Source: Patescibacteria group bacterium
GTDB taxonomy: Bacteria > Patescibacteriota > Microgenomatia > UBA10105 > UBA927
Reading direction: 5' to 3'
DNA: 64,000 nt
Assembly (NCBI GenBank): GCA_023379025.1
Contig: JAMCTH010000009.1
Coordinates: 69,092 to 133,091, forward strand
Of this stretch, positions 24,237 to 56,681 are shown one piece after another. A model generated the notes under the pieces. It did no database searches and had not been told where the DNA came from. It was given only the letters and a program-made list of their open reading frames with translations. How positions within the stretch are numbered: position 1 is the stretch's first letter; each line of letters begins with the position of its first letter. The translations under genes were made by a program, and so were the position numbers.

Positions 24237-24788
24237 TTAAAAAATTCCTTCCAGACAAAAAATATTTAGCTTCTCTGCTTTTTGTGCCTTCTCACAAAGC
24301 GGACGCAAATCACAGTGTCGGCAGAGTGAATCATGAAGATCGTCTTTATGGACACCCAGTGTTCCCCGTTTCTGGTGAAGATCAAATAAAAGTTTCAAAT
24401 ATTTTCCTTCTGCTATCCTTGGAATCTCATCTCTGCGTTCATATCCGTACCATTCGTACAGCCGTTTATCGCCCTTACTCAAATTGCAATGTTTGCATAC
24501 CCGTATGGCGTTTTCCGGCGTATCTGGGCCATTGTGTTTTTTTGGAAGTATATGCTCTGTGGTTAGTTCGATTTGCTTTTCGCAATAGATACACTCATCC
24601 AAATGTTCCCGCTCCTTTTCCCATTCACGGAGTGTTGTAGACCATTCTATCTCGCCATCCCGCAATGCGAGAAACCGGTTCATCTGAAATCCTCGCCCCT
24701 GATTCCCGATGCAGGCGGATTTGGATATCAGCTTAGCATACTGCCAATAAATCGTATCCCGAATCGTTTGTGCGATAGGCGGAGGCAT
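24237..24788 (-). CDS. HNH endonuclease
   Basis: 183 aa; CIYCEKQ...EHILPKKHNGPDTPENAIRVCKHCNLSKG is a classic HNH/His-Me finger with a CxxC...CxxC zinc site. Low-GC DNA. Confidence 0.8.
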   Translation of the reverse strand: MPPPIAQTIRDTIYWQYAKLISKSACIGNQGRGFQMNRFLALRDGEIEWSTTLREWEKEREHLDECIYCEKQIELTTEHILPKKHNGPDTPENAIRVCKHCNLSKGDKRLYEWYGYERRDEIPRIAEGKYLKLLFDLHQKRGTLGVHKDDLHDSLCRHCDLRPLCEKAQKAEKLNIFCLEGIF

Positions 24789-24794: not shown

Positions 24795-25025
24795 CTAAAT
24801 TTTCCCTTGTTTCCTTCTATTTTTATGAATACGAACATGCTTGCCTATACTGATGACTCGTACATTTCGTTTTGTAGTTTTCCCACCTAGCGCTACTGGT
24901 TTAACATGGTGCGCTATGTTCCCCTTAGGCGCTCTTCCTTTCGGATAACCCTTTGCCTTCAAAACTCTTTTAAGTTTACCGGGGTTCCGCCCCTTCCTTA
25001 TCTGAGTCTTAGTTGGTTTTCTCAT
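24795..25025 (-). CDS. 76-aa highly basic mini-protein with HNH-like core (HH-x-P-x-ALGG...N...H..IH)
   Basis: MRKPTKTQIRKGRNPGKLKR... then IAHHVKPVALGGKTTKRNVRVISIGKHVRIH. Overlaps the hsdS stop by 17 nt and lies 6 nt from the HNH gene. Confidence 0.45.
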   Translation of the reverse strand: MRKPTKTQIRKGRNPGKLKRVLKAKGYPKGRAPKGNIAHHVKPVALGGKTTKRNVRVISIGKHVRIHKNRRKQGKI

Positions 25026-26391
25026 TTTCCTGGCCTCCCTTCTCTATCATCTCTTCAACTTTGCGTTTTGCTTCCTCCAATAATTCCTTCGATTTCTTCC
25101 GTGCCTCGTGCGACTGACGTACCAAGTCTGCAATTTTTTGTTGAGTGGATTCCGCCAAAACGGGAATAAGCATATTATCAATTGATTCTTGCGGGACTGC
25201 GGTCAAAATAGTTCCTGCGCATCGTTTTTTTAATTGCTTTTGCATTATCAAACTTCTGGCCATCACCAATAATACCTCCGGTAATACTTCATCACTTCGA
25301 AATTGAAAAAATCCTGTCGATGCAATATATCCATCTTGTTCTTCGTCGATAAGTGCGACTTTTTCTAACGATCCTTCGACGCTGGAAACGATAACATCAC
25401 CGGCTTTCAATAATCGTTTCGCTCTGCCCGGCGCCTCCTTACCCGATACTTCCTCATATCCATCAACAACGCCAATTGATGCATTTATGTTTGCAAGCTC
25501 GACGTACTTAAATGTCTCATCCGGTTTCTCGCCTGGTTTAAAATTTGCAGGTACGTCAAAAATAGTTTTCTTTAATGTTTTCGCTCCCCGCTTTTTTAAT
25601 TCTGACTCTAATACTTCATATTTCGGTTGAAAATAATCCGCATCTATCCTATTCGTTTTTGTAGAATCAGAAAAATTAATGACGTAACTCAAGTCATCGG
25701 AAAATTGTAAATTTTTTAACTCTAGCTCATCCAACAGCAAATTTTCTGCATCTGCATAGCTTTTTTTTGAGACATCAGTCATTCTAAGTGATTCTTTATA
25801 TAACGACTCAACCTCTTTGACTTCATTCTCTAAAAACGTAGGGATCAATATTGTTTTTGTTTGCCAAAGAAAAATATGTTGTTGAACGCTTCCTACTGGC
25901 AATCGTAACACCTGTTTTTTCCCATACTTCGAATTTAGAAACATAGCAATCATTAGGGCCGAATAGTTTGGTTTTAACGAAATCTTCACAATGTCTTGAT
26001 TGGAATTTAGCTTTTGCGGAATATTGAGAGCCATTGCGGCATTTCCAACAGATCCAGACATTGCCAATAAAACCTGTCCCTCATAAACGCGGGATTTCTT
26101 TAATATTTCATCAGATCTATTATCAATAAATTTAACGTCGTTATAATCTATATAACCTTCCTTAATATTATTGGCTTCAATAAATGGAATCCCATCTTCG
26201 ACCCATTCAATGTAATTTGTTAAGTCGTATGCACCAAAACTAATTAAGCTTTCAGATATATCCTCAAGTGTTTGATGGGGTATAGATTGGAGTTTTTTTG
26301 CTATCTCTAAATATTCCGGCTGGTAATATTCAGAGTCTATCCGTTGCGCCCCTTCAAGTTGAGATTTTTTAATAATTGAATATGTGGTCAT
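25009..26391 (-). CDS. hsdS: type I restriction-modification specificity subunit HsdS (two TRDs)
   Basis: 460 aa; N-terminal ...RIDSEYYQPEY, duplicated TRD architecture with a central conserved region; 4-bp ATGA overlap with the upstream gene. Confidence 0.85.
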   Translation of the reverse strand: MTTYSIIKKSQLEGAQRIDSEYYQPEYLEIAKKLQSIPHQTLEDISESLISFGAYDLTNYIEWVEDGIPFIEANNIKEGYIDYNDVKFIDNRSDEILKKSRVYEGQVLLAMSGSVGNAAMALNIPQKLNSNQDIVKISLKPNYSALMIAMFLNSKYGKKQVLRLPVGSVQQHIFLWQTKTILIPTFLENEVKEVESLYKESLRMTDVSKKSYADAENLLLDELELKNLQFSDDLSYVINFSDSTKTNRIDADYFQPKYEVLESELKKRGAKTLKKTIFDVPANFKPGEKPDETFKYVELANINASIGVVDGYEEVSGKEAPGRAKRLLKAGDVIVSSVEGSLEKVALIDEEQDGYIASTGFFQFRSDEVLPEVLLVMARSLIMQKQLKKRCAGTILTAVPQESIDNMLIPVLAESTQQKIADLVRQSHEARKKSKELLEEAKRKVEEMIEKGGQENEKTN

Positions 26392-26969
26392 AACGTCTTA
26401 TTCGGAAAGTTGAGAAATTCGATATATGAAAGAAATGCCTTTCCCTTATCGGTAATTAAATAGTGATCATTCCTCGAATGGATTAACCCTGCATCAAAAA
26501 GGAATTTTAAATAGAAATCGAAAGTCCAATTTTTTAATAGAGGAAATATATTTTGAGTGAAAACAAAAAATAATATTGTATCTTTTGATTGTTCGCCGTT
26601 TCTAGTCTCTTGCGCTCTTAATCTCTTTAGCAATTCTATTTGGCTTCCAAAAATAAACCGATAGATTCTTTCAAAATCTAAATATATTTGTGTGTAGCTT
26701 AAATCTTTTTTAATTTTTTCTATCTCTGATGTTTTAGGATTATTTTCTGCTAATTTCTCATACTGCGGAGGGGGTGATAAATTCACTCTAGTTCCGCCCG
26801 GTAAATCTGCGCTTTGAATCCGATTCAATAAATTTTTAATCTCTTGGTTAAATTTTATAATTAAAAATATAACTATAGAAGGCCAAATCAATACCTTTAC
26901 ATATTCAAGGATCAAAACCCAATCTATTCGCGAAACTGACCGTATGGTAGTTGACGTTGTTGCTATCAT
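26388..26969 (-). CDS. hypothetical membrane-anchored protein embedded between hsdM and hsdS
   Basis: 193 aa; one N-terminal TM helix (WVLILEYVKVLIWPSIVIFLIIKF) and a soluble C-terminal domain with winged-helix-like LLKRL...GLI...YLITDKGKAFLSYI. No recognised family. Translationally coupled on both sides. Confidence 0.55.
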   Translation of the reverse strand: MIATTSTTIRSVSRIDWVLILEYVKVLIWPSIVIFLIIKFNQEIKNLLNRIQSADLPGGTRVNLSPPPQYEKLAENNPKTSEIEKIKKDLSYTQIYLDFERIYRFIFGSQIELLKRLRAQETRNGEQSKDTILFFVFTQNIFPLLKNWTFDFYLKFLFDAGLIHSRNDHYLITDKGKAFLSYIEFLNFPNKTL

Positions 26970-26971: not shown

Positions 26972-28912
26972 CTACCTCCGAAAACTAAATTTCTGCTCTT
27001 TCGCAAATTCGATAAATTTATCTGCTATCTCATCCAAATCGTGGTCGAGGACTTTGCGACCGCGGGAATCGTACACATAGTTTCCCGAGGAATCTTTTTT
27101 ATAGACGTATTCGCCGGAGTTATCTTTGCCGCCGCGCTTGGAGACCGCCATAAAAATGGGATAATCGGCAAGCGGCTCACTCTCCCATTTTTGCAAAAAC
27201 AATACTGATGTCTTGGTTCCCGTGTGCGGTTTAAACGTATTTCCGTGCAGCCCGACGACGGCGAGAATACGCGCCTTGTCAAACAGCCACTGCCGGATAT
27301 ATTCCATATTGGTATTGTTAAATACTCCCTGCGGCAACACAATGGCGATTCTGCCGCCGGGTTTAACGAATTCAAGCACCCGCTCGATAAAGAGAACGTG
27401 CCGCTCTACCGTATTCACCAGCTTTCCGTTTTTCTTTCCGAACTCGTACTGACGGAGTAACCCAGGATCTTTGAGCTCACCCGCAAACGGCGGATTCGTA
27501 AGCACGAGGTCAAACGAAAAATTTTTAAACGTCTTTTCATTTTCTTCCTGCTCGCCGTAATCCTGACATTTCAAAAGCCGTTGACGTAGCTCCCGCCGCG
27601 CCTGCAATTTTTCGTCGTCTTCCCCCTGCCATTCGCGCGGATCAAGCGAGTTGAGCTTAAACAAATGCGACCGTCCATCACCTGCTATTAGCATAAGAGC
27701 GCGTGAAACTTTCGCCGTTTCATCGGCAAAATCAATGCCGTACAAATATTGTTTTGAATATTCCTGTTTCGCGTGTTCAGTCGATAAATACTGTTCTTTC
27801 ACCCAATTCATTGCACCAATAAGGAATCCTCCGGAGCCGGCCGCGGGATCCAACACATACTCGCCCGATTTCGGATTGAGCATTTTGACTGCCATCGCGA
27901 TGACATGGCGCGGGGTAAAATATTGCCCCTTCTTCCCCTTGGCCACTTCCGGAATCAGATATTCAAACGCTTCGTCGATGATAGATAAATCAGCGCCGAA
28001 AAGCCTAGCGGTTTCCATTTCTCCCACAACCACGGACAAATGCTCGGGAGACAATCGGATGAGTTCCTGTTCATAAAACGTCCCGGGCCATTTATATATT
28101 GCCTTTCGGAATAAATCGTTGATCGCCGTATACGTTTTTGCGGGATCTTTATATTTACGGAAATAGATTTCATTATCCGGCCGGCTTTCTGCTTCCATTT
28201 CGTCGTACAGCTTTGCGTAAATGAGTTTGAATACCTCGTTAAATACATCAACGCCGGCATTGGCGAGCACCAATTCCTCCATGATCTCTATCGCCCGCTT
28301 CAAATCAAATTTTGGATTGGTATCGCCAAGTGTCTTTTTTTCGCTCAATAAATCATCAATGGTTTTGTTGGCAGATGGAATATCCGGAAGCGTATCTTCA
28401 AATTGATTCGGATAATTCCGATACAAGATCACGCGGTCAATCCCATTTGACCATACGCCGATTTCGCATCCTTCCGCGTTTAAATAACTCTTGAGTTGAT
28501 CAATACCTTTTTCCTCCGTTGGGCTTTTTACTTCGACAATGATATACGGCGTCACCTTGTCGGTTTTGTACACAACAATATCCGCCGCCTTTTTATGGAT
28601 TTCCCGCCCGAAATGAATGCTTTTTTCCGTCTCCAACCGGTCATATGGATACCCAAGAAGCGCATGAAGCTTGTGAAGCCACAACTGCCGCACAATTTCT
28701 TCCGGACGACCGAGTTTTTTCTGTTCGTCGTATACTACGCGTGGATTTCCCGTTTTGAGATCTTTGATAAAAAACTTTTTTTCTTCTTCCCAGATGTAGA
28801 GTACCGAGTTGATATCAATACCCTCAAATTCCTTTAACCCATAGACGATGGAGGCATCTTTAAAAATTCTGTCAATAATTTCTCCGGCTTTATTCGGTTT
28901 TATGGTTGGCAT
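26972..28912 (-). CDS. hsdM: type I RM N6-adenine DNA methyltransferase HsdM with N-terminal HsdR_N-like PD-(D/E)xK domain
   Basis: 646 aa; motif I VLDPAAGSGGFL, motif IV TNPPFAG. N-terminal 150 aa contain ADIVVY...IIVEVKSP (D...ExK), resembling the N-terminal nuclease-fold domain of HsdR. Confidence 0.85.
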   Translation of the reverse strand: MPTIKPNKAGEIIDRIFKDASIVYGLKEFEGIDINSVLYIWEEEKKFFIKDLKTGNPRVVYDEQKKLGRPEEIVRQLWLHKLHALLGYPYDRLETEKSIHFGREIHKKAADIVVYKTDKVTPYIIVEVKSPTEEKGIDQLKSYLNAEGCEIGVWSNGIDRVILYRNYPNQFEDTLPDIPSANKTIDDLLSEKKTLGDTNPKFDLKRAIEIMEELVLANAGVDVFNEVFKLIYAKLYDEMEAESRPDNEIYFRKYKDPAKTYTAINDLFRKAIYKWPGTFYEQELIRLSPEHLSVVVGEMETARLFGADLSIIDEAFEYLIPEVAKGKKGQYFTPRHVIAMAVKMLNPKSGEYVLDPAAGSGGFLIGAMNWVKEQYLSTEHAKQEYSKQYLYGIDFADETAKVSRALMLIAGDGRSHLFKLNSLDPREWQGEDDEKLQARRELRQRLLKCQDYGEQEENEKTFKNFSFDLVLTNPPFAGELKDPGLLRQYEFGKKNGKLVNTVERHVLFIERVLEFVKPGGRIAIVLPQGVFNNTNMEYIRQWLFDKARILAVVGLHGNTFKPHTGTKTSVLFLQKWESEPLADYPIFMAVSKRGGKDNSGEYVYKKDSSGNYVYDSRGRKVLDHDLDEIADKFIEFAKEQKFSFRR

Positions 28913-28913: not shown

Positions 28914-29552
28914 TTAGCTTACAGTCCTCCACTGTCCGGCTTTCAGGATGGAAATGACTTTTCCCTTCATTTCGACCAAGCTGGTAAAAAATATTGGCGG
29001 ATAATTCGGATTTTCCGGCTTCAAATAATGATACGGAGGCTTATCTTGGGAAATAAATCGCTTGATCGTTGATTCCTCGCCGATCTGTGCATACACAATA
29101 TCACCGGAGGCGAATTCTTTTTGACTTTTCACCAACACGTTGTCGCCATCATTAATACCCGCATTGATCATCGAATCTCCAGAAATCTTCAGGAGAAAAA
29201 CTTCGGCATCTAGCTTCGAAATATCTTTTGAAACCGGCTTCCAGTCTCCGTCGATAACGATTGATTGAAGTGGTGCCCCTGCATGACTCACGCCTAAAAA
29301 AGGAACAAGCGGATCTCTGCCTAAGGCTTCATATCCGTATGGCAATATCGCAAGACTGCGCGCTGCGGATCCATTGCGCTTGATGATCCGTTTTTGTGCT
29401 AATTTCCCGAGAAGATCTATCACTGACTGATTCGAAGAAACGCCGAGGCGCTCCCGCATTTCTTCAAACGTCGGCGGGTACCCCGTATCTTTTATATAAT
29501 CGTAGAGGATAGACAACATTTCCAATTGACGCTTCGTTAACGGCAGATTCAT
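28914..29552 (-). CDS. lexA: LexA-like repressor (N-terminal wHTH plus C-terminal S24 self-cleaving peptidase)
   Basis: 212 aa. N-terminus LTKRQLEMLSILYDYIKDTGYPPTFEEMRERLGVSS...IIKR aligns with the LexA DNA-binding domain. C-terminus GDSMINAGINDGD...TIKRF carries the Ser/Lys dyad. Stop lies 1 nt before the hsdM start. Encoded in low-GC island DNA. Confidence 0.8.
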   Translation of the reverse strand: MNLPLTKRQLEMLSILYDYIKDTGYPPTFEEMRERLGVSSNQSVIDLLGKLAQKRIIKRNGSAARSLAILPYGYEALGRDPLVPFLGVSHAGAPLQSIVIDGDWKPVSKDISKLDAEVFLLKISGDSMINAGINDGDNVLVKSQKEFASGDIVYAQIGEESTIKRFISQDKPPYHYLKPENPNYPPIFFTSLVEMKGKVISILKAGQWRTVS

Positions 29553-29700
29553 AATACTGCCATACTACCCGACTAAATATTCTGGGTCAACTGGAAATCT
29601 ATATATCAAATAGCATCATTATCCATAAAACCCTGCGGGTATAAAAGCGCGATCAGAAATACCTAAATGTAAAGTGTCTCGGGCCGAAAGTTTATTCGAT

Positions 29701-31407
29701 TTATGACAATTTCCCCAAAAAATCGTTTATCTTTTGTTCTATTGCCGAACGACGGTATGCGAGAAATTCTTGAAAATTATCCATCTCCCAAAGCCGTTTA
29801 TCTGCCGGAATAAGTTGGGACGTAAGCGCTGTCTCACCGCGTTTTGGAATAATTTCATTTGTAAAGTAATCGATTGGCTCTCTGTCTAGTATGTGCCTGT
29901 TCGTTTTCCCTCCGATAAATGCAAGGTTAGCAATTTCGTTTATATCCTTGGAGTCAATGTTCCGTTTGGTTAGCTGGGCTTTAGGAAATATATGATGCCA
30001 TTGAATTTTATGCGTATCCCCTAGCGTTTTATCCGAAAGCTGCAGCCCAGTCAGCCAATCCTTTGCGCCATTTGCCTTTAGTACAAAATACAGCATGGTA
30101 AATATAGGACTAACTGTCGTCTTACCCGCAAGCTCGCCGGGTTCAAGTTCAAATCGCCGTACGTGCTCCTTGAGCTTGGCAATCAAATCATCGAGCGTAC
30201 CTCCACGAAACAATACTGCTAAATCCGCATCCAAAATAGATTCCGAAGATCCCATTCCATAGTGTCCGCGTATGTGAGCCAGGAAAAACCATCGCAACAG
30301 CTTCTTTTCCTCATCCATGCTCAATTGCTCATTGTGAAGGTACGCAAAAACGGCGATTGGAACGACAAGCATGGGTGACGATAAATATTCCAGATTGTCA
30401 ATTCCAGCGTTTTTCCGAAGGAAGTTCACGGCAAACCGCAGGCTGTTTTGAGCAATATCCCATGCTTCCGCCAACTTTTCTTTGGAATACCGACCAATGG
30501 TCTTGAATTTGCTTTGTTTTGTCGCAAACACGGTCATGAAGCGCACGAGTAACCAATCAAACACATAATCTGAATCGTCCCCAAATGTCTCAGCAAAGTC
30601 ATCCATGAGATTCATAAATCCGCGCCATTTGGCTGTGATTTGTGCTAATGCCAGATCAGAACCCCGTAGTTTCACCCCAAGTGAATTTACGCGGACAAAT
30701 ATCTCCGTTACCTCCTCATACGACATTTCGCTCTCGAGGAGTTGTATGTCATACATATATTTTTCAATATCTTTTACTTTCTGCAGCCGATCGGAGTAAC
30801 GGAGGTAGTTGGGGTCCTCAAACGAGGTGACGCCCGCGCGCTTGAGAATTTCCGCATGGTTTTTATTGAATATATCCGATACGGATACCCATGTGGGTAT
30901 GTTTTTCAGCGCCCGGGACGTAACTACAAACGTCCGTTTTTTCAGTTCCTCCTGGATATCCCGGTCATCACCGTCATTTTCCATTTGTTCGTCAATATCA
31001 GCGGTTTCCGCTTCTTCATCCACTTCCAGGACTTCTATTGGCGGCCCTTCCGGATGCTCAAGATTAAAAAGGATTTCAATGGGCCGTTTTCTGTTCCTCA
31101 CAATAATCGGTTGCCCGGTTAATATTGCGGCAAGCGAGGTGATTCTCTGTTGGCCGTCCAACAACAACCATCTGCTGAGCGGTAAATTCGGTTTCGTGGC
31201 ATCCACGGACAAGCCGTGCGTTACCACATTTTCGGACGTTTGCCACACTAAAATACTTCCGGAAGGATAATTGCGATACAGGGAATCAAGGAGGTCGCGG
31301 ACCCGAGTTGCAGTCCACACGTATTTGCGCTGCATCTCCGGAAGCTGTAGCTCATCGTTCTGAACTTTATTAACCAAATCCCGAACGGAAATATCGCTTT
31401 TCTGCAT
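29701..31407 (-). CDS. GmrSD-family type IV (modification-dependent) restriction endonuclease, DUF262-DUF1524
   Basis: 568 aa. N-terminal ParB-like DUF262 with (L)LDGQQRITSL motif; C-terminal DUF1524 His-Me finger QWHHIFPKAQL...N...N. Confidence 0.8.
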   Translation of the reverse strand: MQKSDISVRDLVNKVQNDELQLPEMQRKYVWTATRVRDLLDSLYRNYPSGSILVWQTSENVVTHGLSVDATKPNLPLSRWLLLDGQQRITSLAAILTGQPIIVRNRKRPIEILFNLEHPEGPPIEVLEVDEEAETADIDEQMENDGDDRDIQEELKKRTFVVTSRALKNIPTWVSVSDIFNKNHAEILKRAGVTSFEDPNYLRYSDRLQKVKDIEKYMYDIQLLESEMSYEEVTEIFVRVNSLGVKLRGSDLALAQITAKWRGFMNLMDDFAETFGDDSDYVFDWLLVRFMTVFATKQSKFKTIGRYSKEKLAEAWDIAQNSLRFAVNFLRKNAGIDNLEYLSSPMLVVPIAVFAYLHNEQLSMDEEKKLLRWFFLAHIRGHYGMGSSESILDADLAVLFRGGTLDDLIAKLKEHVRRFELEPGELAGKTTVSPIFTMLYFVLKANGAKDWLTGLQLSDKTLGDTHKIQWHHIFPKAQLTKRNIDSKDINEIANLAFIGGKTNRHILDREPIDYFTNEIIPKRGETALTSQLIPADKRLWEMDNFQEFLAYRRSAIEQKINDFLGKLS

Positions 31408-31470
31408 ACTTCTGCCCTATTTTACACCCACCCCGCCCTTTTCGCGATGATAACAAATTTAAAAATCTCA

Positions 31471-32658
31471 TTACCTTTTATTCACTCGGTGGCGCGCTAT
31501 GCGGTAGCTGTCATCAAATAATTCGTAATAATCGCCGTAGATATATTTTTGTCCGTATACCGCAGTTCCGAGCGGCTCAAGTATATCCAGACGCATAAGG
31601 CGTTCGATCACGTTATATGCGCCCGGCGCCGTAAAACCTGTCCATTTCATAATTTCCGCGACTCCCACAATCGGCTGGCCAAACAGTTTCCGAACGAGCC
31701 CTAAGGTTAATGCTGCAGATTTTTTGCCGAGCATTTGCATTTTTGCAAAATCGCGGTCACGAAGTGCTGTAATCCGGGCACAGGTTTCTATAGACGATTC
31801 CGCTGTTTCCGCAACCCCATCCAAAAAAAACTCCAACCATCCGTCAACATCAGATTCGTCATCGTGATATGTTTGCAACTTCTCATAATAAAGCTTGCGG
31901 TACTTTTTAAAGTAACCCGACAGATAGAGAACCGGCAATTCCAAAAGCTTCGCATGCTGCATGTACATCGCGACCAGCATACGGCCCGTACGTCCGTTTC
32001 CGTCCGTGAACGGATGAATCGTCTCAAATTGTGCATGGATGAGTCCGGCTTTCACAAGCGACGGGTACTCATCTTCGGCATGCATAAACAATTCCAAGTC
32101 TTGAAGACTTGCGACCATATCTTCTGGCGCAGGCGGCACAAAAGATGCATCCATCGGCGTCTTGCCTCCGATCCAATTTTGACTCCTCCGGAATTCACCC
32201 GGGTACGCATGCTGCGTTGCCCGTGCGCCAGTCATGAGTTTCTTATGCAGCTCCCGGATCAAACGAAGAGAAATCGGTAATATTTCCGATCTCTTCATAC
32301 CGTAATTCATTGCCTCCACGTAGTGGATAATGTCATCCACGTCCGGCTCCAAACGCGATTTTTCTTCGGTCACTGGCGCTGCCACGGCATCTTGCAGTGT
32401 TGCTCTAGTCCCTTCGATTTGGCTGGAATAGGTAGCGTCTTTTTTGACAAACATCAAAAGAAAAAAATCTTTGTCCGGCAGTAACCGGGTGATGCCGTCC
32501 AGCTTGCCGACCAAACGGATCGCACGTTCATGTTTTTTATGGAGGAACGCTCGTATAGGGAATCCGCTCTTCGGTGGGAACGGGAAGGGCGTAAACGACG
32601 AGTATCCGTCTTTCTGTGCTATATACCGACCAATGCGTGGTTTGTTTATATTGCTCAT
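31471..32658 (-). CDS. Fic family protein (AMPylase-type; Fic_N plus Fic plus C-terminal wHTH)
   Basis: 395 aa; canonical Fic motif HPFTDGNGRTGR. Confidence 0.85.
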   Translation of the reverse strand: MSNINKPRIGRYIAQKDGYSSFTPFPFPPKSGFPIRAFLHKKHERAIRLVGKLDGITRLLPDKDFFLLMFVKKDATYSSQIEGTRATLQDAVAAPVTEEKSRLEPDVDDIIHYVEAMNYGMKRSEILPISLRLIRELHKKLMTGARATQHAYPGEFRRSQNWIGGKTPMDASFVPPAPEDMVASLQDLELFMHAEDEYPSLVKAGLIHAQFETIHPFTDGNGRTGRMLVAMYMQHAKLLELPVLYLSGYFKKYRKLYYEKLQTYHDDESDVDGWLEFFLDGVAETAESSIETCARITALRDRDFAKMQMLGKKSAALTLGLVRKLFGQPIVGVAEIMKWTGFTAPGAYNVIERLMRLDILEPLGTAVYGQKYIYGDYYELFDDSYRIARHRVNKR

Positions 32659-32699
32659 ACGAATATAAACATATTATACTATTTTGTTTATATTTGCAA
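32643..32699 (-). promoter_or_regulatory. sigma70-like promoter (TTGCAA-N15-TATAAT) with three TGTTTATAT/ATATAAACA half-sites straddling the fic start codon; candidate operator
   Basis: TGTTTATAT at 32643-32651, ATATAAACA at 32663-32671, TGTTTATAT at 32685-32693. -35 TTGCAA at 32694-32699 and -10 TATAAT (minus strand) at 32673-32678. Confidence 0.4.
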
Positions 32700-33767
32700 C
32701 ACCAATGTAAACGAACCGTGTAACCCTTTTCTATCCCCGGAGTGGGGAAAAATAGTTTCTGACACATGTAATTGCACCGTCCGGAACATATTTCCGCGAC
32801 CATCCCTCTTCACTCAATTTTGTCAATTTATCGTGAATTTGGCTAAAAAATCGGCGGTATTCACGTTATTTCATCGTCATTGCGCCGTAGACCAATCCTA
32901 TGGGAATCACAAAGATGCAGAGGGGGCTACCGGTCCGCCCACGATAAACCCGACTGCTACGATTCCGTCCCATCAACCCTCTCTCCCCCGTTGACAAAAC
33001 GCGCGCAGAAATCCCGATGCTTCAGATCACTGTTTGCACCGAAAGCACCCGGAGTGGAAGAGTGGAAAACGAAACGATGTCAGAAACAAACACCATCACC
33101 CGCAAACTCGTCCGGATCCGCAAGACCATCGGACACCTCCGCATACCGCCTGCATCGTTTTATGTCATCGCCTGCAGTCACCAAACGCTCCGCATCCTGG
33201 AGCGCACCGGTGATACCACGAAACTCCACACCCATGTGCTCCGTCATATGGCGGCGCCGGAACAGATTACACGTCTCGTCCGTTCGGCCATTGCCGGAAC
33301 CGACACAAAACCCCTCGCCGCGGCCTATGCCGGACCGCGCTCCGGATTGTTCCATACGGTTGCGTCCCTCTTGTGGTTTGGGGATGACGTCATTCCGGCC
33401 GTCATCTTCCCCGAACACAAAGGTCGAGGGAACGGACACGCCCTTCAGGAACTGGTCCCGGACGGCCCGGATGTTTTCCGATACCCACGACCTCCTTCAG
33501 ACGCTTTCGCCCGACAACGAAGTAGCGGTCCGGCCGCTCGTGACCATCGGGGGCTATCGCGACACTACTTCGGAGGACGGCATGAGTACGCTTCTAAACC
33601 TCGCTTCCCGCGTCAAAAAGATACGCATACTCTTCATCAGTGCAACTCCTCGGTGAGGCGGGGTTGCCCTCATGCGGCATGCCCTCATCCCCAAGCAGGA
33701 AATTTTGAAATCACCAAAACCAAATTCTTCAACGTCCTCCAGGGAATAAACGGTCCTGACATCGTCC

Positions 33768-41907: not shown

Positions 41908-42219
41908 TTACGCTTTGTTGGCCCGTTTACTGAGTATGTATTGCACCGAAGGGCTTACTGATTTATCCGTCCGGTGGATACAGCCTATCCAGCAACACGG
42001 ACGGCGCATGCCGTCTTTGAGCTCGGTGCATACCCGCTCCACATGTTCTTTTCTGGTTTTCGGCATTTTAACGGAGATCGTCCAGCAAATCCATTCATTA
42101 CGCGCAAGCGGGGTAAGGCTTTCCCAAAGCGCAGACGCTTTCGGATCAGACAGTAAGGCCTCCCGCAAATCCGGAGGAACGTCATGGACGACGCCTCCTG
42201 ACATATCTTTTTTGGTCAT
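41908..42219 (-). CDS. YdeI/OmpD-associated family protein
   Basis: PPDLREALLSDPKASALWESLTPLARNEWICWTISVKMPKTRKEHVERVCTEL matches the P.DL..AL...P.A...F..L.P..R.E...W...AK...TR..R pattern of this family. Confidence 0.6.
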   Translation of the reverse strand: MTKKDMSGGVVHDVPPDLREALLSDPKASALWESLTPLARNEWICWTISVKMPKTRKEHVERVCTELKDGMRRPCCWIGCIHRTDKSVSPSVQYILSKRANKA

Positions 42220-42505
42220 AGCGTCATTCTAACAAATGTTCGGGTGTCCGACAAAAAAAGTGTTGAAGTAACGGGATAGGAAAAACTTCTTTCATGCAGA
42301 CACTTTTTTGTGTATCATAAAAGTAATGATACGGGGAAACTTTATCGGTGCGGCGGTTGTTGCGATAATCTATACGGTTTATATTTTGATTAAGCCGCTT
42401 CCGTCAAAACCGCAGGAAGTAGTTGCGCTCGTCGTTCTCAATGCCCTGACCATCGTGCTCCTGTCGCAAGCTTTCAAATAAATTTTTTACCTAATAAAAA
42501 GGGGC

Positions 42506-42991
42506 TTATTTCACCGCAATACATTCCTCATCTTCTCCCGGCGGTTGCCAATATTCTACATAACTATCAAACGTCTCTCCGCTTATTTCAAATGAATCTC
42601 TAGGCGGATTTTTACTTCTGGAGATCACCCGCTCCCTCATTTTCTCCATCGAACATGCGACGTAATACAGAATCGGCTTTGCGCCTATTTCATATATTTT
42701 TTTCTTTATATCGTCTCTTTGTGACTTAACCCAAAAACCTTCGTCCAGTATCACATCTTTACCTGCTTTTAGGATTTTGAATGCTGTCTCTGTTGCGAGA
42801 TCAGTAATTTTATTGTCATAGGCTGCAAAATTCTTATCTGCGGTTATCTTGTTTCCGAAAATTTTGATTATCCATTCGTCTTTGGTTATACGTACGGCTC
42901 CTGTTTCTTCCTCCAGTTTCCTGGCAACCGTCGTCTTCCCCGAACCGATGAACCCGCAGATAAGATAAGCAATAGGCTGTTTCTTATTCAT
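42506..42991 (-). CDS. P-loop NTPase / predicted small-molecule or polynucleotide kinase (AAA_33-like)
   Basis: Walker A ICGFIGSGKTT at the N-terminus, 161 aa; low-GC DNA. Confidence 0.55.
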   Translation of the reverse strand: MNKKQPIAYLICGFIGSGKTTVARKLEEETGAVRITKDEWIIKIFGNKITADKNFAAYDNKITDLATETAFKILKAGKDVILDEGFWVKSQRDDIKKKIYEIGAKPILYYVACSMEKMRERVISRSKNPPRDSFEISGETFDSYVEYWQPPGEDEECIAVK

Positions 42992-43135
42992 GAGTCAATT
43001 ATATCAGAAGGATCGAACTGTCCAGCGAAGGGTCCTTGAGGCTAAAATAGCTAACTTCCCCTAAACGACCCATCCATCAACGAAAGAGTGGAGTTCGGAC
43101 ACAGACTTGGACTAAGAAAGATACTTGCGGAGAGC

Positions 43136-44236
43136 TTAAACTTTAAAATATGCGAAAACCTCGTTCATCGCTTCAAATCCTCGCTTTATATTCCTTTGTA
43201 GTCCTGGTGAGTTGTGGACAGTGGCCATTTTCACTCGTAATTTCAGTTTTGAGACTAAGTATCTGAGTTTGAAGATCTGAAACTTATTATTGAAATTAGT
43301 GGGGAACGTATTTGTGAGAGAATAGCCTTCTTTAAACCATGTCATTCTGGGCTCCCCAAAAAACAGGCTGTATGCAGAAAATTCCATGACGGGATCACCT
43401 GAAATGCACTCATCCCAGTCAACAATACCTGTTATATGCTTCCCATCTGACAGCGTATTCCAGTCTGCAACGTCGTTATGGATTAAAGCTGGTTCATCGC
43501 AATTGATGAGATCTGCGTTTTTATTAAGGAGTGCCAATATCTTTTCTTGCTGTGAATGAGTGATCTTATGGTCATTATCAAGGTATTCAAGGTCTTCATG
43601 AAGCGAGGCAAAAAAATGCTCACGGAGAGAATTGTACTGTCCTTCCAACGTGCCTTTGCTCTTTGCTATTTTATTGTCAAAAAAACCGAAACCCCTTGTT
43701 TTCACCCGATGAATCAGGCCGATTTGTCGACCCGTTTCCCTAATTAGTTGTTCTTCATAAGCGTATTTGATTTCACCTGAATGGGTAAAATTTCGCATTG
43801 TTTCTCCCGGCAAAGCTTCCATGATTATGAAATCAAAATCAAATTTTTTCCTGTCATTGACGATGATATACGTTGAATAAGTAAGAACCCCGTACGCTTT
43901 TGCCTTTTCTGCAGCGACTTTTTCAACCCAAAAATATCCATTTTTTACATCTTTTGGATGCATTCTGATTACTATATTTGTACCATCCGCCAATTTTGCT
44001 TTCAGAACGTTATTAACCAAACCATCGGTTATCAACTCTCCAACCTGAACTACTTTAGCATCCTGAGGCTTTTTCCCTGTTTTAATCATTCCATATTCAA
44101 TTGCTGGTACTGCATCACTCTTATCAAAACTTTCAGATCGATCTAAGAAGATTTTTTTCATGTCTTCGGCAGAAATATTACGGTTAGTCTGCCAATAAAA
44201 CATATTGTGGCGGTTTGAAAGGTCAAGAATAGGCAT
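43136..44236 (-). CDS. aminoglycoside phosphotransferase (APH) / choline-kinase-like family kinase
   Basis: Brenner motif LIHNDVADWN and downstream IVDWDE; 366 aa; low-GC DNA. Confidence 0.7.
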   Translation of the reverse strand: MPILDLSNRHNMFYWQTNRNISAEDMKKIFLDRSESFDKSDAVPAIEYGMIKTGKKPQDAKVVQVGELITDGLVNNVLKAKLADGTNIVIRMHPKDVKNGYFWVEKVAAEKAKAYGVLTYSTYIIVNDRKKFDFDFIIMEALPGETMRNFTHSGEIKYAYEEQLIRETGRQIGLIHRVKTRGFGFFDNKIAKSKGTLEGQYNSLREHFFASLHEDLEYLDNDHKITHSQQEKILALLNKNADLINCDEPALIHNDVADWNTLSDGKHITGIVDWDECISGDPVMEFSAYSLFFGEPRMTWFKEGYSLTNTFPTNFNNKFQIFKLRYLVSKLKLRVKMATVHNSPGLQRNIKRGFEAMNEVFAYFKV

Positions 44237-44457
44237 GGAGGAATTATATCAAATCCCTGAAATTGAACTTATAGATTATCTTAACTATATTTTTAGATTG
44301 TTTTCATGCCCTAGATCAAAATTTGCTCGAGAAATGGGCTTCGCAAAGCTAAGCTTTGATTTTCTATGGCGCGTTTTGACAATCTAACATTTTAGCTCGC
44401 TTACTGGGACGATTTTAGAGCGGTGGATTGCTCCCCGTTCTTGACCTAACTCGAACT

Positions 44458-44694
44458 TTAGCCATCCTTTTTCTTCCAGGGTAGTTTATCCTTTTCATGC
44501 TTTTTGGTTATTCTTCTGTCTAGATAATTAAAATATGATGGTAGTAAAAAGAAAGTAAGAACAAATCCAAGTATTACTACCCCTTTAACGTCAAGAAAAC
44601 TAGCAAAAAATACTAATAAGGTAATCGCGAAAAAAGAGAATTTCAACGGATCACTGTAAATATTATCTATGAAATTATTGAAGATACTTTTCAT
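44458..44694 (-). CDS. small membrane protein, hypothetical
   Basis: 78 aa, two hydrophobic helices. Confidence 0.35.
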   Translation of the reverse strand: MKSIFNNFIDNIYSDPLKFSFFAITLLVFFASFLDVKGVVILGFVLTFFLLPSYFNYLDRRITKKHEKDKLPWKKKDG

Positions 44695-44729
44695 AAAACT
44701 ATTAATTTGTTGCTATTTAATGTATATAA

Positions 44730-45320
44730 TTAAAGTGATGGTTTTATAACTTCACTTGGAAGTCCATACATATCCTTCGTTGATACTTCAGTACAAACCA
44801 AATCAAATATACTTGTTCCGTTGTTTTCATCCCTAACCTGATAGTACCTTCTATCTTGACCAGCATAAACTGGCTCAAATATTACTACATTACTATTTAC
44901 GCTAATATCACCTAAATGATAACCACCCTCACCTTTACTAAAGGCAATTATATTTCCACTAGTCACGTCAATTACTGCATAGCCAAAACAATCTGTACCA
45001 CACCCCCAAGAAACAAAAGTATAGTGTCCAGCGAAATTAACTCCCTTTGCAACGACCTCTTTAATTCTTGTATCAAATGTTTTTGCTTCGGGAAAATTGG
45101 AAAAATTGACCGGACTAGGACTTCCTTCAAATTTCGGCCGTGTATTTAATTGATTTTTTGCTAATTGCTCCTTACATGTCCCTGCAGTAGAAGTTTTTGT
45201 AATACTTTTACCCACACCAATATCTTTCTGTTTAACTTTTATGTAGCCTGATAAGGCTATCCCAGTCAAACATAAAACACTAATAGAAATTAATAATTTA
45301 CGATTAATTTTCCTTCTCAT
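44730..45320 (-). CDS. secreted/lipoprotein-like hypothetical protein
   Basis: N-terminal signal-like LLISISVLCLTGIALSG; Cys-containing mature domain; no known family. Confidence 0.45.
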   Translation of the reverse strand: MRRKINRKLLISISVLCLTGIALSGYIKVKQKDIGVGKSITKTSTAGTCKEQLAKNQLNTRPKFEGSPSPVNFSNFPEAKTFDTRIKEVVAKGVNFAGHYTFVSWGCGTDCFGYAVIDVTSGNIIAFSKGEGGYHLGDISVNSNVVIFEPVYAGQDRRYYQVRDENNGTSIFDLVCTEVSTKDMYGLPSEVIKPSL

Positions 45321-45513
45321 CTACTACTCCCAAAGAACTGAAAGAGCTTAAAAGTAAAAATCAGTAAATTCTGAACCAATAATTCCAATACTTAGCATTT
45401 TCAGTTTCATAGGAAATATAATAAAAAGCACCAGTAAAACCAAGCTCCGTAATCCTAGTATTAATCTGACTGAAAGTCTAGCACAAGTTATCAAGGCTTT
45501 CCAAAATCCGATT

Positions 45514-46285
45514 ACACACCCCCGGGGTGTGGGCAGACCTACCCAATGTCGTGATATAAATGTGATTCAAGAAATAGGAACCGCTGATATTCTGCCTGAT
45601 CAAACGTACTCCTTTGCAGACTCTCCGCATTCCGATAATATCCCATAAGCAATGTTTTATCCAACATCGCCATATCTGCACGTGATGCATATGACGCGAA
45701 CGAACTCCACCGATACTGAATAAGTTCGTTCTGTGAATGCAGGATGCCGGCGCTTAAGGGATTGAGGTGAATGTATCTGGCCACATGTACAAGCTGCTCA
45801 TCCGTTTCTATCCGCACCGCCTTAAACATGGATTGAAACAGAGCTCCAAACCTCTTTGTTTTGATATTAAAGTACTTCGCATACCCATTTTGAATTTGAG
45901 AAACGAATGTGGCTATTCCTCCATTTCTCAGTTGAGTAAGAAGCATATGAAAATGATTTGGCATCCAGCAAAATGCGAGTATATTCACCAACTTCAGATG
46001 CTGGTGTGCAAACTGTTCGAAGTAGTGTTGTTTTGCAGCCAAGGATAGCCTGTTATATTCAGAGAAACGTACCGGAGGATGTTCAAAGCGATAATACTCG
46101 GCAAGATCTAAAAAACGCTGGTAATCACGACTATTAATGAAAATTATCTGATTCGCGACGCTGCGATTAAAAATATGATACGTCTCTGACGTTTGACAAG
46201 GAACATAACGATATGGCATCACGCATACTATACGCCCCTCAATTAGAATATTCAGTAAGATGACCCACACCCCGGGGGTGTGGGT
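45514..46285 (-). mobile_element. IS200/RAYT-like element: HUH-Y1 transposase gene flanked by CACACCCC-GGGGTGTG hairpin palindromes
   Basis: Imperfect palindromes at 45514-45533 (ACACACCCCCGGGGTGTGGG) and 46265-46285 (CCCACACCCCGGGGGTGTGGG) bracket the transposase ORF. The element abuts the 3' end of tRNA-Asn. Confidence 0.6.
45539..46219 (-). CDS. IS200/RAYT-family tyrosine (HUH/Y1) transposase
   Basis: HUH motif MPNHFHMLL and catalytic Tyr region VARYIHLNP. Start placed at the Met after the upstream hairpin; the ORF track extends to 46315 through the palindrome. Confidence 0.7.
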   Translation of the reverse strand: MPYRYVPCQTSETYHIFNRSVANQIIFINSRDYQRFLDLAEYYRFEHPPVRFSEYNRLSLAAKQHYFEQFAHQHLKLVNILAFCWMPNHFHMLLTQLRNGGIATFVSQIQNGYAKYFNIKTKRFGALFQSMFKAVRIETDEQLVHVARYIHLNPLSAGILHSQNELIQYRWSSFASYASRADMAMLDKTLLMGYYRNAESLQRSTFDQAEYQRFLFLESHLYHDIG

Positions 46286-46322
46286 GGACACAATAAGAAG
46301 GCATAATTGTTTCAAAACTCAG

Positions 46323-46394
46323 CTCCCCCGGCTGGATTCGAACCAGCAACCTTCTTCTTAACAGGAAGCCGCTCTACCGTTGAGCTACAGGGGA
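46323..46394 (-). tRNA. tRNA-Asn(GTT)
   Basis: Manual cloverleaf: TCCCCTG-TA-GCTC-AACGGTA-GAGC-G-GCTTC-CTGTTAA-GAAGA-AGGTT-GCTGG-TTCGAAT-CCAGC-CGGGGGA-G, 72 nt. U1-A72 and G73 as in E. coli tRNA-Asn. CCA not encoded. Confidence 0.85.
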
Positions 46395-46528
46395 GCGGAG
46401 TTTTGAAACGGTATGCTCCAAACCATTTTTCTCTACTATCCAACTGGTCTAGAGAACGTTGATATTATACCATGAGAACTTTCTGTCTCAATAGCGTTAG
46501 AGTCTTCTGAAAGGTTTTGGAAAAAGTC

Positions 46529-55707: not shown

Positions 55708-55751
55708 AATAAGCCTGATTATACCATCTCTCCGGCATCACCGATGCTATA

Positions 55752-56678: not shown

Positions 56679-56681
56679 GGA

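What the first reader, a model, noticed from the sequence alone, without database searches (positions are those of the whole stretch)
28914..29552. Bona fide LexA-type repressor encoded inside the island, 1 nt upstream of hsdM
The protein has both the LexA wHTH (LTKRQLEMLSILYDYIKDTGYPPTFEEMRERLG) and the S24 autoproteolysis domain (GDSM...Ser/Lys dyad). It sits in low-GC, apparently horizontally acquired DNA and is transcriptionally fused to the RM genes. This suggests RecA*/DNA-damage-responsive control of a restriction module, analogous in logic to CapH/CapP control of CBASS, which has not to my knowledge been described for type I RM.
Basis: partly seen in the sequence, partly recalled or inferred. 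Interest (0 to 1): 0.75.

Follow-up and report, generated by a model that had tools for sequence, protein, structure and literature searches.

The report
LexA-headed restriction-modification operon cassette
A complete, apparently cleavable LexA repressor is the first gene of a tightly packed restriction-modification operon in a horizontally acquired island, and the same LexA-then-DNA-methyltransferase pairing (in some relatives as one fused protein) recurs across candidate-phyla-radiation bacteria, which suggests that DNA damage switches these defence genes on.

Summary
ORF 28914-29552(-) is a full LexA: wHTH, S24 domain, Ala91-Gly92, Ser127 and Lys164. It passes the NCBIfam lexA equivalog cut-off. 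Its stop codon lies 1 nt before the next gene.

That gene is not a plain hsdM. It is a BsaXI-like (type IIB-like) nuclease-methyltransferase, followed by a cargo gene, an S subunit and two HNH-type genes. There is no hsdR.

New here: the pairing is not a one-off. In species-representative genomes, 19 of 21 LexAs of this clade (almost all Patescibacteria) are followed by a DNA methyltransferase gene, drawn from five families. Only 1 of 59 other LexAs is. A large family fuses LexA to a methyltransferase.

All clade promoters carry a 16-18 bp palindrome (CYGACTA-WW-TAGTCRG) between -35 and -10. The window's copy is at 29568-29585. I found that site only at lexA promoters, and not at recA.

In one Levybacteria genome the whole lexA-RM-S cassette sits exactly between recA and recX. 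In the window, lexA shares the island's low GC.

Best reading: a cassette-borne, autoregulated LexA that gates an RM operon on RecA*/DNA damage. Binding, cleavage and induction are inferred, not shown. Whether the host has another lexA cannot be tested here.

The parts
29585..29590 (-). -35 hexamer TTGACC of the lexA operon promoter
   Evidence: Promoter scan: TTGACC, 17-nt spacer, TAGTAT. The same TTGAC...TAnnAT architecture occurs upstream of lexA in about 30 related loci.
29568..29585 (-). Predicted LexA operator CCAGAATATTTAGTCGGG. The right half, TAGTCGGG, matches the consensus; the left half is degenerate. It fills the -35/-10 spacer.
   Evidence: PWM score 25.7; it is the only site above 17 in the 64-kb window. 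The clade consensus is CYGACTA-WW-TAGTCRG, a perfect palindrome in L012 and L026. In a metagenome scan, every promoter-context perfect palindrome with readable downstream sequence precedes lexA (9 of 9; a tenth, L091, is cut off by the contig end).
29562..29567 (-). -10 hexamer TAGTAT. The ATG follows 9 nt later, so the mRNA is leaderless or nearly so.
   Evidence: The 6-9 nt spacing from -10 to ATG is conserved in related loci.
28914..29552 (-). lexA (212 aa): wHTH domain, A91-G92 cleavage site, S127/K164 dyad
26972..28912 (-). RM subunit (646 aa): N-terminal PD-(D/E)xK nuclease (D111, E127, K129) fused to a gamma-type N6-adenine methyltransferase (motif I at 355-363, NPPF at 473-476). BsaXI-like / type IIB-like.
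   Evidence: Pfam HSDR_N_2 + N6_Mtase. PADLOC MTase_I PDLC03034, 574 bits. PDB RM.BsaXI 8w0p, E 1e-35, with the nuclease motif aligned. Motif positions.
26388..26969 (-). Cargo gene (193 aa): a hydrophobic N-terminal stretch that I read as a membrane helix, plus a C-terminal winged helix. It occupies a slot that holds unrelated genes in other loci.
   Evidence: Pfam HTH_45 at residues 149-184. The hydrophobic stretch is read from the translation; no transmembrane predictor was run. The slot content is not homologous between loci: GIY-YIG, a 581-aa protein I read as OLD-like, and others.
25009..26391 (-). Specificity (S) subunit, 460 aa; its start overlaps the cargo gene's stop codon (ATGA)
   Evidence: Pfam Methylase_S, PADLOC Specificity_I. 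Present downstream of the RM subunit in most related loci.
24795..25025 (-). Small basic ORF (76 aa) overlapping the S gene by 17 nt. It looks like an HNH/His-Me finger; no family hit.
   Evidence: Called as a gene in an independent assembly (L002).
24237..24788 (-). HNH endonuclease (183 aa), last gene of the packed unit
   Evidence: Pfam HNH, 36.9 bits. A 49%-identical homologue lies downstream of the S gene in L024.
29701..32658 (-). Island neighbours that are not part of the operon: a GmrSD/DUF262-type enzyme (29701-31407; PADLOC HEC-05) and SoFic (31471-32658)
   Evidence: Their GC matches the rest of the island.

Best explanation
lexA is the promoter-proximal gene of a mobile, self-repressed operon: lexA, a BsaXI-like nuclease-methyltransferase, a cargo gene, an S subunit and two HNH-type genes.

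Proposed mechanism. A LexA dimer binds the palindrome that fills the -35/-10 spacer of the single leaderless promoter. This keeps the whole unit at a low, self-limiting level, enough for the enzyme to keep host sites methylated. When RecA-ssDNA filaments form (DNA damage, or phage replication and restriction products), LexA cleaves itself at A91-G92 through S127/K164. The promoter opens, and the RM enzyme, its S subunit and the cargo and HNH genes rise together. Newly made LexA then closes the promoter again.

Shown here: protein identity and catalytic residues; gene packing; clade-wide conservation of the lexA-methyltransferase pairing and of the operator; movement of lexA together with the RM genes.

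Inferred: DNA binding at this site, RecA*-stimulated cleavage, co-transcription, induction, and the benefit to defence.
For: (1) Full LexA with invariant G92, S127 and K164 across 26 relatives, and again in 10 LexA::MTase fusions.

(2) Gaps between the six genes run from -17 to +6 nt, and one promoter lies upstream.

(3) In GTDB representative genomes, 19 of 21 LexAs with at least 42% identity are followed by a DNA methyltransferase gene. Most start within 45 nt and all within 1.5 kb. The methyltransferases belong to five families. Only 1 of 59 LexAs at 40% identity or less has one (Fisher 3.5e-15; the loci are not independent). Extra cases come from metagenomes: L102, L133, L142, L154, L167.

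(4) L008 and L010 keep the first codons of the lost methyltransferase. In L010 a type II M plus TdeIII R has replaced it. In the LexA tree, other RM types are nested inside the BsaXI-like majority.

(5) A large family fuses LexA_DNA_bind + S24 + N6_N4_Mtase in one 460-500 aa protein (about 80 of the top 120 clusters, plus 13 more that show S24 + N6_N4_Mtase without a LexA_DNA_bind hit). A 198-aa HNH gene follows it.

(6) The operator is conserved between -35 and -10 in about 30 loci. It is the only strong site in the window and in roughly 400 kb of related loci. Every promoter-context perfect palindrome in the metagenome scan that has readable downstream sequence is followed by lexA.

(7) There is no such site upstream of recA in L006 or in three related Levybacteria. 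This points to a local rather than global regulator.

(8) lexA moves with the RM genes. In L006 the 5.2-kb lexA...S block lies exactly between the recA stop and the recX start, which are adjacent in relatives. The window's lexA has island-type GC3. LexA and methyltransferase divergence are correlated (Mantel r 0.41, p 0.023).

(9) Homologous RM+S pairs without LexA exist on plasmids of cultured bacteria, so LexA is an added control layer.
Against: - There is no experimental evidence for binding, cleavage or induction.
- The left operator half in the window is degenerate (CCAGAATA against CCGACTA). That variant is, however, conserved in the window's subclade.
- The protein scores as an ordinary LexA equivalog, and the host is a Patescibacterium. 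It may be the cell's only LexA, with targets elsewhere in the roughly 216 kb of the contig and the rest of the genome that I could not see.
- The absence of recA operators rests on four loci of one class.
- Raising a restriction enzyme after DNA damage runs against the classical logic of restriction alleviation. The benefit is therefore unclear.
- The loci counted are phylogenetically related, so the contingency statistic overstates independence.
Confidence: 0.6

Rival explanations
1. It is simply the housekeeping SOS repressor of Patescibacteria. RM genes land downstream of lexA because that spot is a tolerated insertion site, and co-transcription has no selected function.
For: - It passes the lexA equivalog cut-off.
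- The clade spans many CPR lineages.
- RM types are replaced downstream of a resident lexA (L010).
- A LexA of another CPR group also has an RM pair 579 nt downstream (L029).
- No second lexA is visible in the window.
Against: - The pairing holds in 19 of 21 loci, with junctions mostly of 1-45 nt.
- A fusion family exists.
- lexA moves together with the RM genes (L006; island GC).
- The operator was not found at recA.
- Promoter-context perfect palindromes occur only at lexA.
- A neutral hot spot would not be expected to preserve translational coupling, nor to generate fusions that keep the catalytic residues.
Confidence: 0.25
2. LexA acts like a C-protein or RptR-type establishment and homeostasis controller. 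It sets RM dosage by negative autoregulation when the cassette enters a new cell. RecA plays no role, and the S24 domain serves only for dimerisation.
For: - It is the first gene of the operon, with its site overlapping the promoter, as for RptR (PMC12255303).
- The cassette is mobile.
- R and M activities are on one polypeptide, so dosage control is what matters.
Against: The Ala-Gly bond and the Ser/Lys dyad are invariant in 26 + 10 sequences across deep divergence. That is hard to explain unless self-cleavage is under selection.
Confidence: 0.1
3. It is a CI-type repressor of a degraded prophage or other mobile element. The RM genes are a lysogeny-expressed 'moron', as in the Thermus phage operons of LexA-like repressor, defence genes and integrase.
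For: - Such operons exist (PMC11437467).
- The island is horizontally acquired.
- One phage-like contig (L118) carries three tandem operator-like palindromes.
Against: - There are no integrase, structural or replication genes in the island, and no flanking att-like repeats.
- No clade member occurs in IMG/VR; the best viral hit has 35% identity.
- The protein matches LexA far better than cI.
- Operator scans of viral contigs gave only chance hits.
Confidence: 0.05

Closest known systems
RptR-controlled type I RM / DarTG2 island of EPEC (Zhang et al., NAR 2025, PMC12255303)
   Same: The repressor is the first gene of the RM operon. It represses its own promoter through sites that overlap the core promoter. 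Unrelated defence cargo is embedded among the RM genes. Regulator and site are conserved together across many genomes.
   Different: RptR is a 9-kDa four-helix protein with no sensor domain, and its de-repression signal is unknown. Here the regulator is a full LexA with a built-in self-cleavage switch. The RM enzyme is BsaXI-like without HsdR, and the hosts are CPR bacteria.
lexA2-imuA-imuB-dnaE2 mutagenesis cassette (e.g. Pseudomonas putida; from my own knowledge of Abella et al. 2004 and Erill et al. 2006, not re-read here)
   Same: A mobile multi-gene cassette whose first gene is a lexA copy. That copy autoregulates the cassette through its own divergent operator.
   Different: The cargo is translesion polymerases, not restriction-modification genes. 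In that case coexistence with a primary lexA is documented; here it is unknown.
C-protein (controller) regulated type II RM systems
   Same: A dedicated DNA-binding protein is encoded within the RM unit and binds a palindrome at its own promoter to tune RM expression.
   Different: C proteins are small Xre-type HTH activator/repressors that time R relative to M. They have no protease domain and no link to DNA damage.
CapH/CapP (CBASS) and WYL regulators BrxR/CapW (BREX, CBASS)
   Same: The logic matches: a defence operon is kept repressed and then released by a DNA-damage-type signal. In CapH/CapP the release is by proteolysis of the repressor (cited in PMC12255303).
   Different: The proteins are not homologous. 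CapH needs a separate metalloprotease, CapP, and WYL proteins bind ligands. Here repressor and protease are one LexA polypeptide, and the presumed signal is RecA*.
BsaXI / BcgI-type type IIB restriction enzymes (PDB 8w0p)
   Same: The RM subunit has an N-terminal PD-(D/E)xK nuclease plus an N6-adenine methyltransferase, and works with a separate HsdS-like specificity subunit. No motor subunit is involved.
   Different: The window protein is 646 aa against 916 aa. Identity is low outside the motifs. Cutting on both sides of the site is not testable here.
SsoII-type methyltransferases with an N-terminal HTH that represses their own gene (my own knowledge, not re-read here)
   Same: These parallel the LexA::N6_N4 methyltransferase fusions found in relatives: a DNA-binding regulatory domain is fused to the M enzyme of a two-gene RM system.
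   Different: The SsoII-type N-terminal region is a short HTH without an S24 self-cleaving domain.
Prophage operons of LexA-like repressor, defence genes and integrase in Thermus phages (PMC11437467)
   Same: An S24-type repressor is co-transcribed with restriction genes.
   Different: Those are CI-like repressors within prophage lysogeny modules. Here there is no phage context, and the protein is an orthodox LexA.

Membership tests
LexA (TIGR00498) | N-terminal LexA-type winged HTH plus C-terminal S24 peptidase domain, with a score above the curated cut-off | tested here: met
   PF01726 52.8 bits, PF00717 81.8 bits; TIGR00498 146.2 bits against a cut-off of 110.95.
LexA (TIGR00498) | Ala-Gly scissile bond and Ser/Lys catalytic dyad | tested here: met
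   A91-G92, S127 and K164 align to E. coli A84-G85, S119 and K156. They are invariant in the clade.
LexA (TIGR00498) | Autoregulation through an operator at its own promoter | tested here: met
   A conserved 16-18 bp palindrome lies between -35 and -10 in about 30 loci, including 29568-29585 in the window. Binding itself was not tested.
LexA (TIGR00498) | Controls a DNA-repair regulon that includes recA | tested here: inconclusive
   No operator was found upstream of recA in L006, L325, L327 or L329. No second strong site occurs in the window or in roughly 400 kb of related loci. Whole genomes were not available.
LexA (TIGR00498) | RecA*-stimulated self-cleavage | not testable with these tools
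   This needs biochemistry. recA is present in related genomes.
Classical type I RM (HsdR-HsdM-HsdS) | HsdR motor/nuclease subunit | tested here: not met
   No helicase-type R gene lies in the island or adjacent to the cassette in related loci.
Classical type I RM (HsdR-HsdM-HsdS) | HsdM-type N6 methyltransferase and HsdS with two target-recognition domains | tested here: met
   N6_Mtase 140 bits; Methylase_S and PADLOC Specificity_I hits on both halves of the 460-aa S protein.
Type IIB RM (BsaXI/BcgI-like) | One polypeptide carrying a PD-(D/E)xK nuclease and a gamma N6-adenine methyltransferase, plus a separate S subunit | tested here: met
   Best PDB hit is RM.BsaXI, E 1e-35, in three aligned segments that include D..EVK. 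Motifs: D111, E127-V-K129, NPPF 473. The S gene lies downstream.
Type IIB RM (BsaXI/BcgI-like) | Double-sided cleavage that excises the recognition site | not testable with these tools
   This needs an enzymatic assay.
MADS (methylation-associated defence system) | mad2 and mad5 scoring above cut-off, plus the other mad genes | tested here: not met
   MAD2 scores 297 against a cut-off of 720, and MAD5 scores 154 against 400. No other mad genes are present.
C-protein controlled RM | Small Xre-type controller protein with a C-box | tested here: not met
   The regulator is a 212-aa LexA. No Xre-type ORF lies in the unit.
Known defence-system regulators/components (PADLOC) | The LexA protein matches any PADLOC model | tested here: not met
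   Zero families matched the LexA protein.

The most novel reading that the evidence does not exclude
In candidate-phyla-radiation bacteria a whole branch of the LexA family has been taken over as a portable, self-cleaving switch for restriction-modification. It travels with the RM genes, recognises only its own promoter, survives swaps of the RM type, and has repeatedly been fused to the methyltransferase itself. In those fusions self-cleavage would detach the enzyme from its DNA-binding domain. These would be SOS-gated RM systems. They would supply the explicit signal-sensing step that is still missing for regulators such as RptR.
Probability: 0.4. Interest if true: 0.8.

Novelty: new variant of a known kind. 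Interest (0 to 1): 0.7.

Why it matters
How defence systems are kept quiet and then released is an open question. For type I RM the only described dedicated repressor, RptR (2025), has no known release mechanism.

Here the repressor is a LexA, whose release mechanism (RecA*-stimulated self-cleavage) is textbook. The hypothesis 'RM output is gated by DNA damage or phage replication' therefore becomes directly testable with a short list of experiments.

The finding also bears on how ultra-small CPR bacteria, which mostly lack CRISPR, organise defence. It shows LexA acting as a modular, horizontally moving cassette regulator rather than only a chromosomal master switch.

The LexA::methyltransferase fusions are currently annotated either as 'LexA' or as 'methyltransferase'. 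They are an unstudied architecture.

Tried and rejected
- **Second lexA in the window.** tblastn with this LexA and with E. coli LexA found none.
- **Prophage or viral origin.** No clade member occurs in IMG/VR. The RM subunit has no close viral relative. Two operator scans of viral contigs gave only chance hits or terminator hairpins.
- **The gene between the RM and S subunits as a conserved third component.** Rejected: the occupants are unrelated between loci.
- **MADS membership.** Rejected: the scores are far below the cut-offs.
- **att-like direct repeats flanking the island.** None found.
- **Operator half-sites at the start of the methyltransferase gene (L008, L009, L022).** Explained by the coding sequence for the conserved N-terminus MPTKK. 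The window lacks them.
- **Other perfect-palindrome hits in metagenomes.**
  - L089/L155 is a TetR-family promoter.
  - L093 and most of the others are repeats or terminator stems.
  - L024's second site lies inside a coding sequence.
It holds an unrelated 30-nt repeat, not the LexA site.
- **Literature.** Sanchez-Osuna, Barbe & Erill 2017 (Environ Microbiol 19:3465) on the Patescibacteria SOS network could not be opened. Ten full-text searches found no paper linking LexA to RM genes in CPR bacteria or describing the fusion.
Full report
**1. The observation**

The ORF at 28914-29552 on the minus strand encodes 212 residues.
- It carries Pfam LexA_DNA_bind (residues 4-65) and Peptidase_S24 (87-200).
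- It scores 146.2 bits on the NCBIfam lexA equivalog model, whose cut-off is 110.95.
- Its best solved-structure relatives are genuine LexA proteins (E about 1e-21). UmuD and lambda cI rank far below.
- Alignment to E. coli LexA puts A91-G92 on the scissile A84-G85 bond, S127 on S119 and K164 on K156.
- In an alignment of 26 relatives, G92, S127 and K164 are invariant and A91 nearly so.
- The TAA stop is followed by one base and then the ATG of the next gene.
- The island is real: GC is 0.33-0.48 over 24.2-32.9 kb against 0.55-0.58 outside.

**2. What follows lexA**

The next gene (26972-28912, 646 aa) is more than an hsdM.
- It has an N-terminal HSDR_N_2 domain and an N6_Mtase domain.
- Its best solved relative is the RM subunit of the type IIB enzyme BsaXI (8w0p, E 1e-35). 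The alignment includes the nuclease motif, 'aaDIVVY...IIVEVK' against 'vDVLV...FIEVK'.
- The motifs sit at D111, E127-x-K129, motif I at 355-363 and NPPF at 473.

The genes after it are:
- a 193-aa protein with a hydrophobic N-terminus and a winged-helix C-terminus;
- a 460-aa S subunit;
- a 76-aa basic ORF;
- a 183-aa HNH endonuclease.

Gaps between the six genes are +1, +2, -4, -17 and +6 nt. No hsdR is present. NCBIfam MADS models hit far below their cut-offs. The LexA matches nothing in PADLOC.

Upstream lie a GmrSD/DUF262-type enzyme (PADLOC HEC-05) and a SoFic protein. The stretch is thus a small defence island.

**3. The host**

Flanking genes encode ATP synthase subunits, BipA, acetate kinase, phosphoketolase, RpoD and DnaG. 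The exact proteins are recorded at NCBI from a 279,906-bp contig of a 'Patescibacteria group bacterium'. An independent Logan assembly carries the island together with both flanks. The host is therefore itself a CPR bacterium.

lexA has GC 0.45 and GC3 0.48, like the other island genes. Host genes have GC3 0.56-0.70. lexA thus arrived with the island. No second lexA is present in the 64 kb. The rest of the genome is out of reach.

**4. The pairing is conserved**

The closest LexA relatives (64-85% identity) are nearly all from Patescibacteria. In three contigs looked up directly, the same order recurs: lexA, RM subunit, variable gene(s), S subunit.

A scan of one genome per GTDB species returned 80 LexA loci.
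- Among the 21 with at least 42% identity to the window protein, 19 have a DNA methyltransferase gene starting within 1.5 kb downstream, mostly within 45 nt.
- Among the 59 with 40% identity or less, one does.
- Fisher's test gives p = 3.5e-15, with the caveat that the loci are related.

The methyltransferases belong to five families:
- the BsaXI-like one (the majority);
- a second nuclease-methyltransferase of about 620 aa with a short S protein (L014, L027, L154);
- N6_N4 enzymes (L010 with a TdeIII endonuclease, L015, L028);
- an Eco57I-like enzyme (L023);
- a 301-aa enzyme with a small putative nuclease (L133).

L008 and L010 still carry the first codons of the lost BsaXI-like gene. In a neighbour-joining tree the RM-linked LexAs form one clade, sister to other CPR LexAs. 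The minority RM types are nested among BsaXI-like ones. RM types have therefore been swapped downstream of lexA while the linkage persisted.

LexA and RM-subunit divergence are correlated (Mantel r 0.41, p 0.023). The S subunits vary freely, as expected for specificity domains.

**5. Fusion proteins**

In L028 the LexA reading frame continues into an N6_N4 methyltransferase, giving a 478-aa protein. A database search shows this is a family.
- About 80 of the top 120 clusters combine LexA_DNA_bind, Peptidase_S24 and N6_N4_Mtase in 460-500 aa, and 13 more show S24 + N6_N4_Mtase without a LexA_DNA_bind hit.
- Identities run from 53 to 82%.
- Members come from Paceibacterota, Portnoy-, Vogel- and Jorgensenbacteria.
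- Sources annotate them either as LexA or as methyltransferase.
- A91, G92, S127 and K164 are invariant in ten aligned members.
- In three loci a 198-aa HNH gene follows.

This is Rosetta-stone evidence for a functional link between LexA and DNA methyltransferases in these bacteria.

**6. Promoter and operator**

Upstream of lexA in about 30 loci the same architecture recurs:
- TTGAC as the -35 element;
- a spacer filled by the palindrome CYGACTA-WW-TAGTCRG, perfect in L012 and L026;
- TAnnAT as the -10 element;
- the ATG 6-9 nt later, implying a leaderless mRNA.

In the window these elements are TTGACC (29590-29585), CCAGAATATTTAGTCGGG (29585-29568) and TAGTAT (29567-29562). The left half-site is degenerate, but in a form shared by the window's subclade.

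A matrix built from 22 sites finds no other site above 17 bits in the window, and none in roughly 400 kb of related loci apart from lexA promoters. One weaker site occurs inside a coding region.

A metagenome scan for the perfect palindrome returned 80 loci. Ten have the promoter context. All nine with readable downstream sequence have lexA there; the tenth (L091) is cut off by the contig end. The remaining loci are terminator stems, repeats or a TetR promoter.

recA lies directly upstream of lexA in L006. It has no such site, and neither has recA in three related Levybacteria.

On present evidence the repressor's only detectable target is its own operon. Whole genomes were not scanned.

**7. 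lexA moves with the RM genes**

In Levybacteria whose RecA is 88-94% identical to that of L006, recA is followed within 10 nt by recX, then by rny and hup. In L006 the 5.2-kb block (lexA, RM, GIY-YIG, X, S) begins 3 nt after the recA stop. It ends overlapping the recX start. Together with the island GC in the window, this shows that lexA plus its promoter is part of the mobile unit.

Homologous RM+S pairs occur without LexA on plasmids of Klebsiella and cyanobacteria. LexA is therefore an added control layer specific to this lineage.

**8. Mechanism**

The most economical reading is a self-repressed operon that is opened by LexA self-cleavage when RecA filaments form. That raises the RM enzyme, its S subunit and the cargo and HNH genes together.

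Because nuclease and methyltransferase are one polypeptide, induction does not unbalance R against M.

Which advantage is gained is open:
- a stronger barrier during phage replication;
- re-methylation after repair synthesis;
- or expression of toxic cargo only in compromised cells.

Shown: identity, residues, packing, conservation, operator, mobility. Inferred: binding, cleavage, co-transcription, induction. I put this reading at 0.6.

The main rival, at 0.25, is that this is the cell's ordinary SOS LexA and RM genes merely accumulate behind it. The two readings overlap: even then the RM genes would be SOS-induced. A RecA-independent controller role (0.1) is disfavoured by the invariant catalytic residues. 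A prophage origin (0.05) is disfavoured by the lack of any phage context.

**9. Comparison with known systems**

- The closest functional analogue is RptR. It is the first gene of type I RM islands, an autorepressor with embedded cargo, and its release signal is unknown (PMC12255303).
- The closest evolutionary analogue is the lexA2-imuA-imuB-dnaE2 cassette (my own knowledge).
- C proteins, CapH/CapP and the WYL regulators share the logic but not the ancestry.
- SsoII-type HTH-methyltransferases parallel the fusions.
- Thermus prophages co-transcribe LexA-like repressors with restriction genes (PMC11437467).

I found no open paper describing LexA-headed RM operons or LexA::methyltransferase fusions. 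The one dedicated study of the Patescibacteria SOS network could not be read, so prior mention cannot be excluded.

**10. Verdict**

This is a real feature, and ordinary in its parts: LexA, RM, an autoregulated operon. It is unusual in their conserved combination. I rate it a new variant of a known kind, with interest 0.7.

Noticed in passing
L012, L014, L023, L024, L028, L091, L092, L102, L121, L133, L142, L149, L154, L167, L331 (upstream of lexA); window 29619-29627: A DnaA-box-like TTATCCACA sits at a fixed place, about 8-10 nt upstream of the -35, in many CPR lexA promoters. It is perfect in 14 of 32 and has at most one mismatch in 20 of 32. Only 26 perfect boxes occur in 394 kb of these loci. 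The window has a reverse-orientation, one-mismatch copy (TATGGATAA). This suggests DnaA input into lexA/RM expression.
   Followed up: partly
L118 4376-4440 (JACCDG011563814.1): A phage-like 8.3-kb contig carries three tandem operator-like palindromes about 25 nt apart in an AT-rich intergenic region: CTGACTAAATAGTAGG, CCGACTATATAGTCGG and CTGACTAAATAGTCAG. The contig has no lexA. It may be a mobile element that reads the host's LexA of this clade.
   Followed up: partly
L028 10001-11437; L330 6001-7410; L331 6001-7434; proteins P0246-P0342: There is a large family of LexA (DNA-binding + S24) fused to an N6_N4 DNA methyltransferase, followed by a 198-aa HNH gene. Two different LexA N-terminal types occur. 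The L330 type has a different operator-like spacer (TTCTATTTTTGTTCTAG) and lies just after nrdD-nrdG.
   Followed up: partly
Between the RM and S genes in L003, L006, L016-L026, L102, L167; window 26388-26969: The position between the RM subunit and the S subunit holds unrelated genes in different loci: membrane proteins, a GIY-YIG nuclease, a 581-aa protein I read as an OLD-like ATPase-nuclease, and proteins I read as DUF3800-like and NYN-like. It behaves like a cargo slot inside the operon, reminiscent of DarTG2 inside the RptR island.
   Followed up: partly
L006 7953-13190; L329 10127-11257: The recA-recX junction of Levybacteria is an insertion hot spot. It holds the lexA-RM cassette in L006 and an unrelated 376-aa ORF in L329, but nothing in L325 or L327.
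   Followed up: partly
window 42000-46400: There is a second low-GC patch (GC 0.34-0.43). It contains an APH-type phosphotransferase (43136-44236) and an IS200/Y1-transposase-like ORF (45539-46315) abutting tRNA-Asn (46322-46394). It may be another acquired segment.
   Followed up: no
window 32641-32712: An imperfect 30-nt direct repeat (TTTGTTTATATT...ATATAAAC, copies 42 nt apart) lies just upstream of the SoFic gene. It is unrelated to the LexA operator and may be a regulatory site for the Fic/GmrSD pair.
   Followed up: no
L016 8559-9617; L012 8902-9351: A Fic-family gene also lies next to lexA in L016 (49% identical to the window's SoFic, opposite strand), and more weakly in L012. The Fic-lexA neighbourhood is therefore not unique to the window.
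   Followed up: no
window 55617-60514: A cluster of six tRNA genes (four Ser, two Arg) lies within 5 kb.
   Followed up: no
L324 (Klebsiella plasmid NZ_LR890357.1) 10603-13832: The LexA-less homologue of the RM+S pair on a Klebsiella IncF plasmid is also flanked by two DUF262 (GmrSD-type) genes. This echoes the GmrSD neighbour in the window.
   Followed up: no
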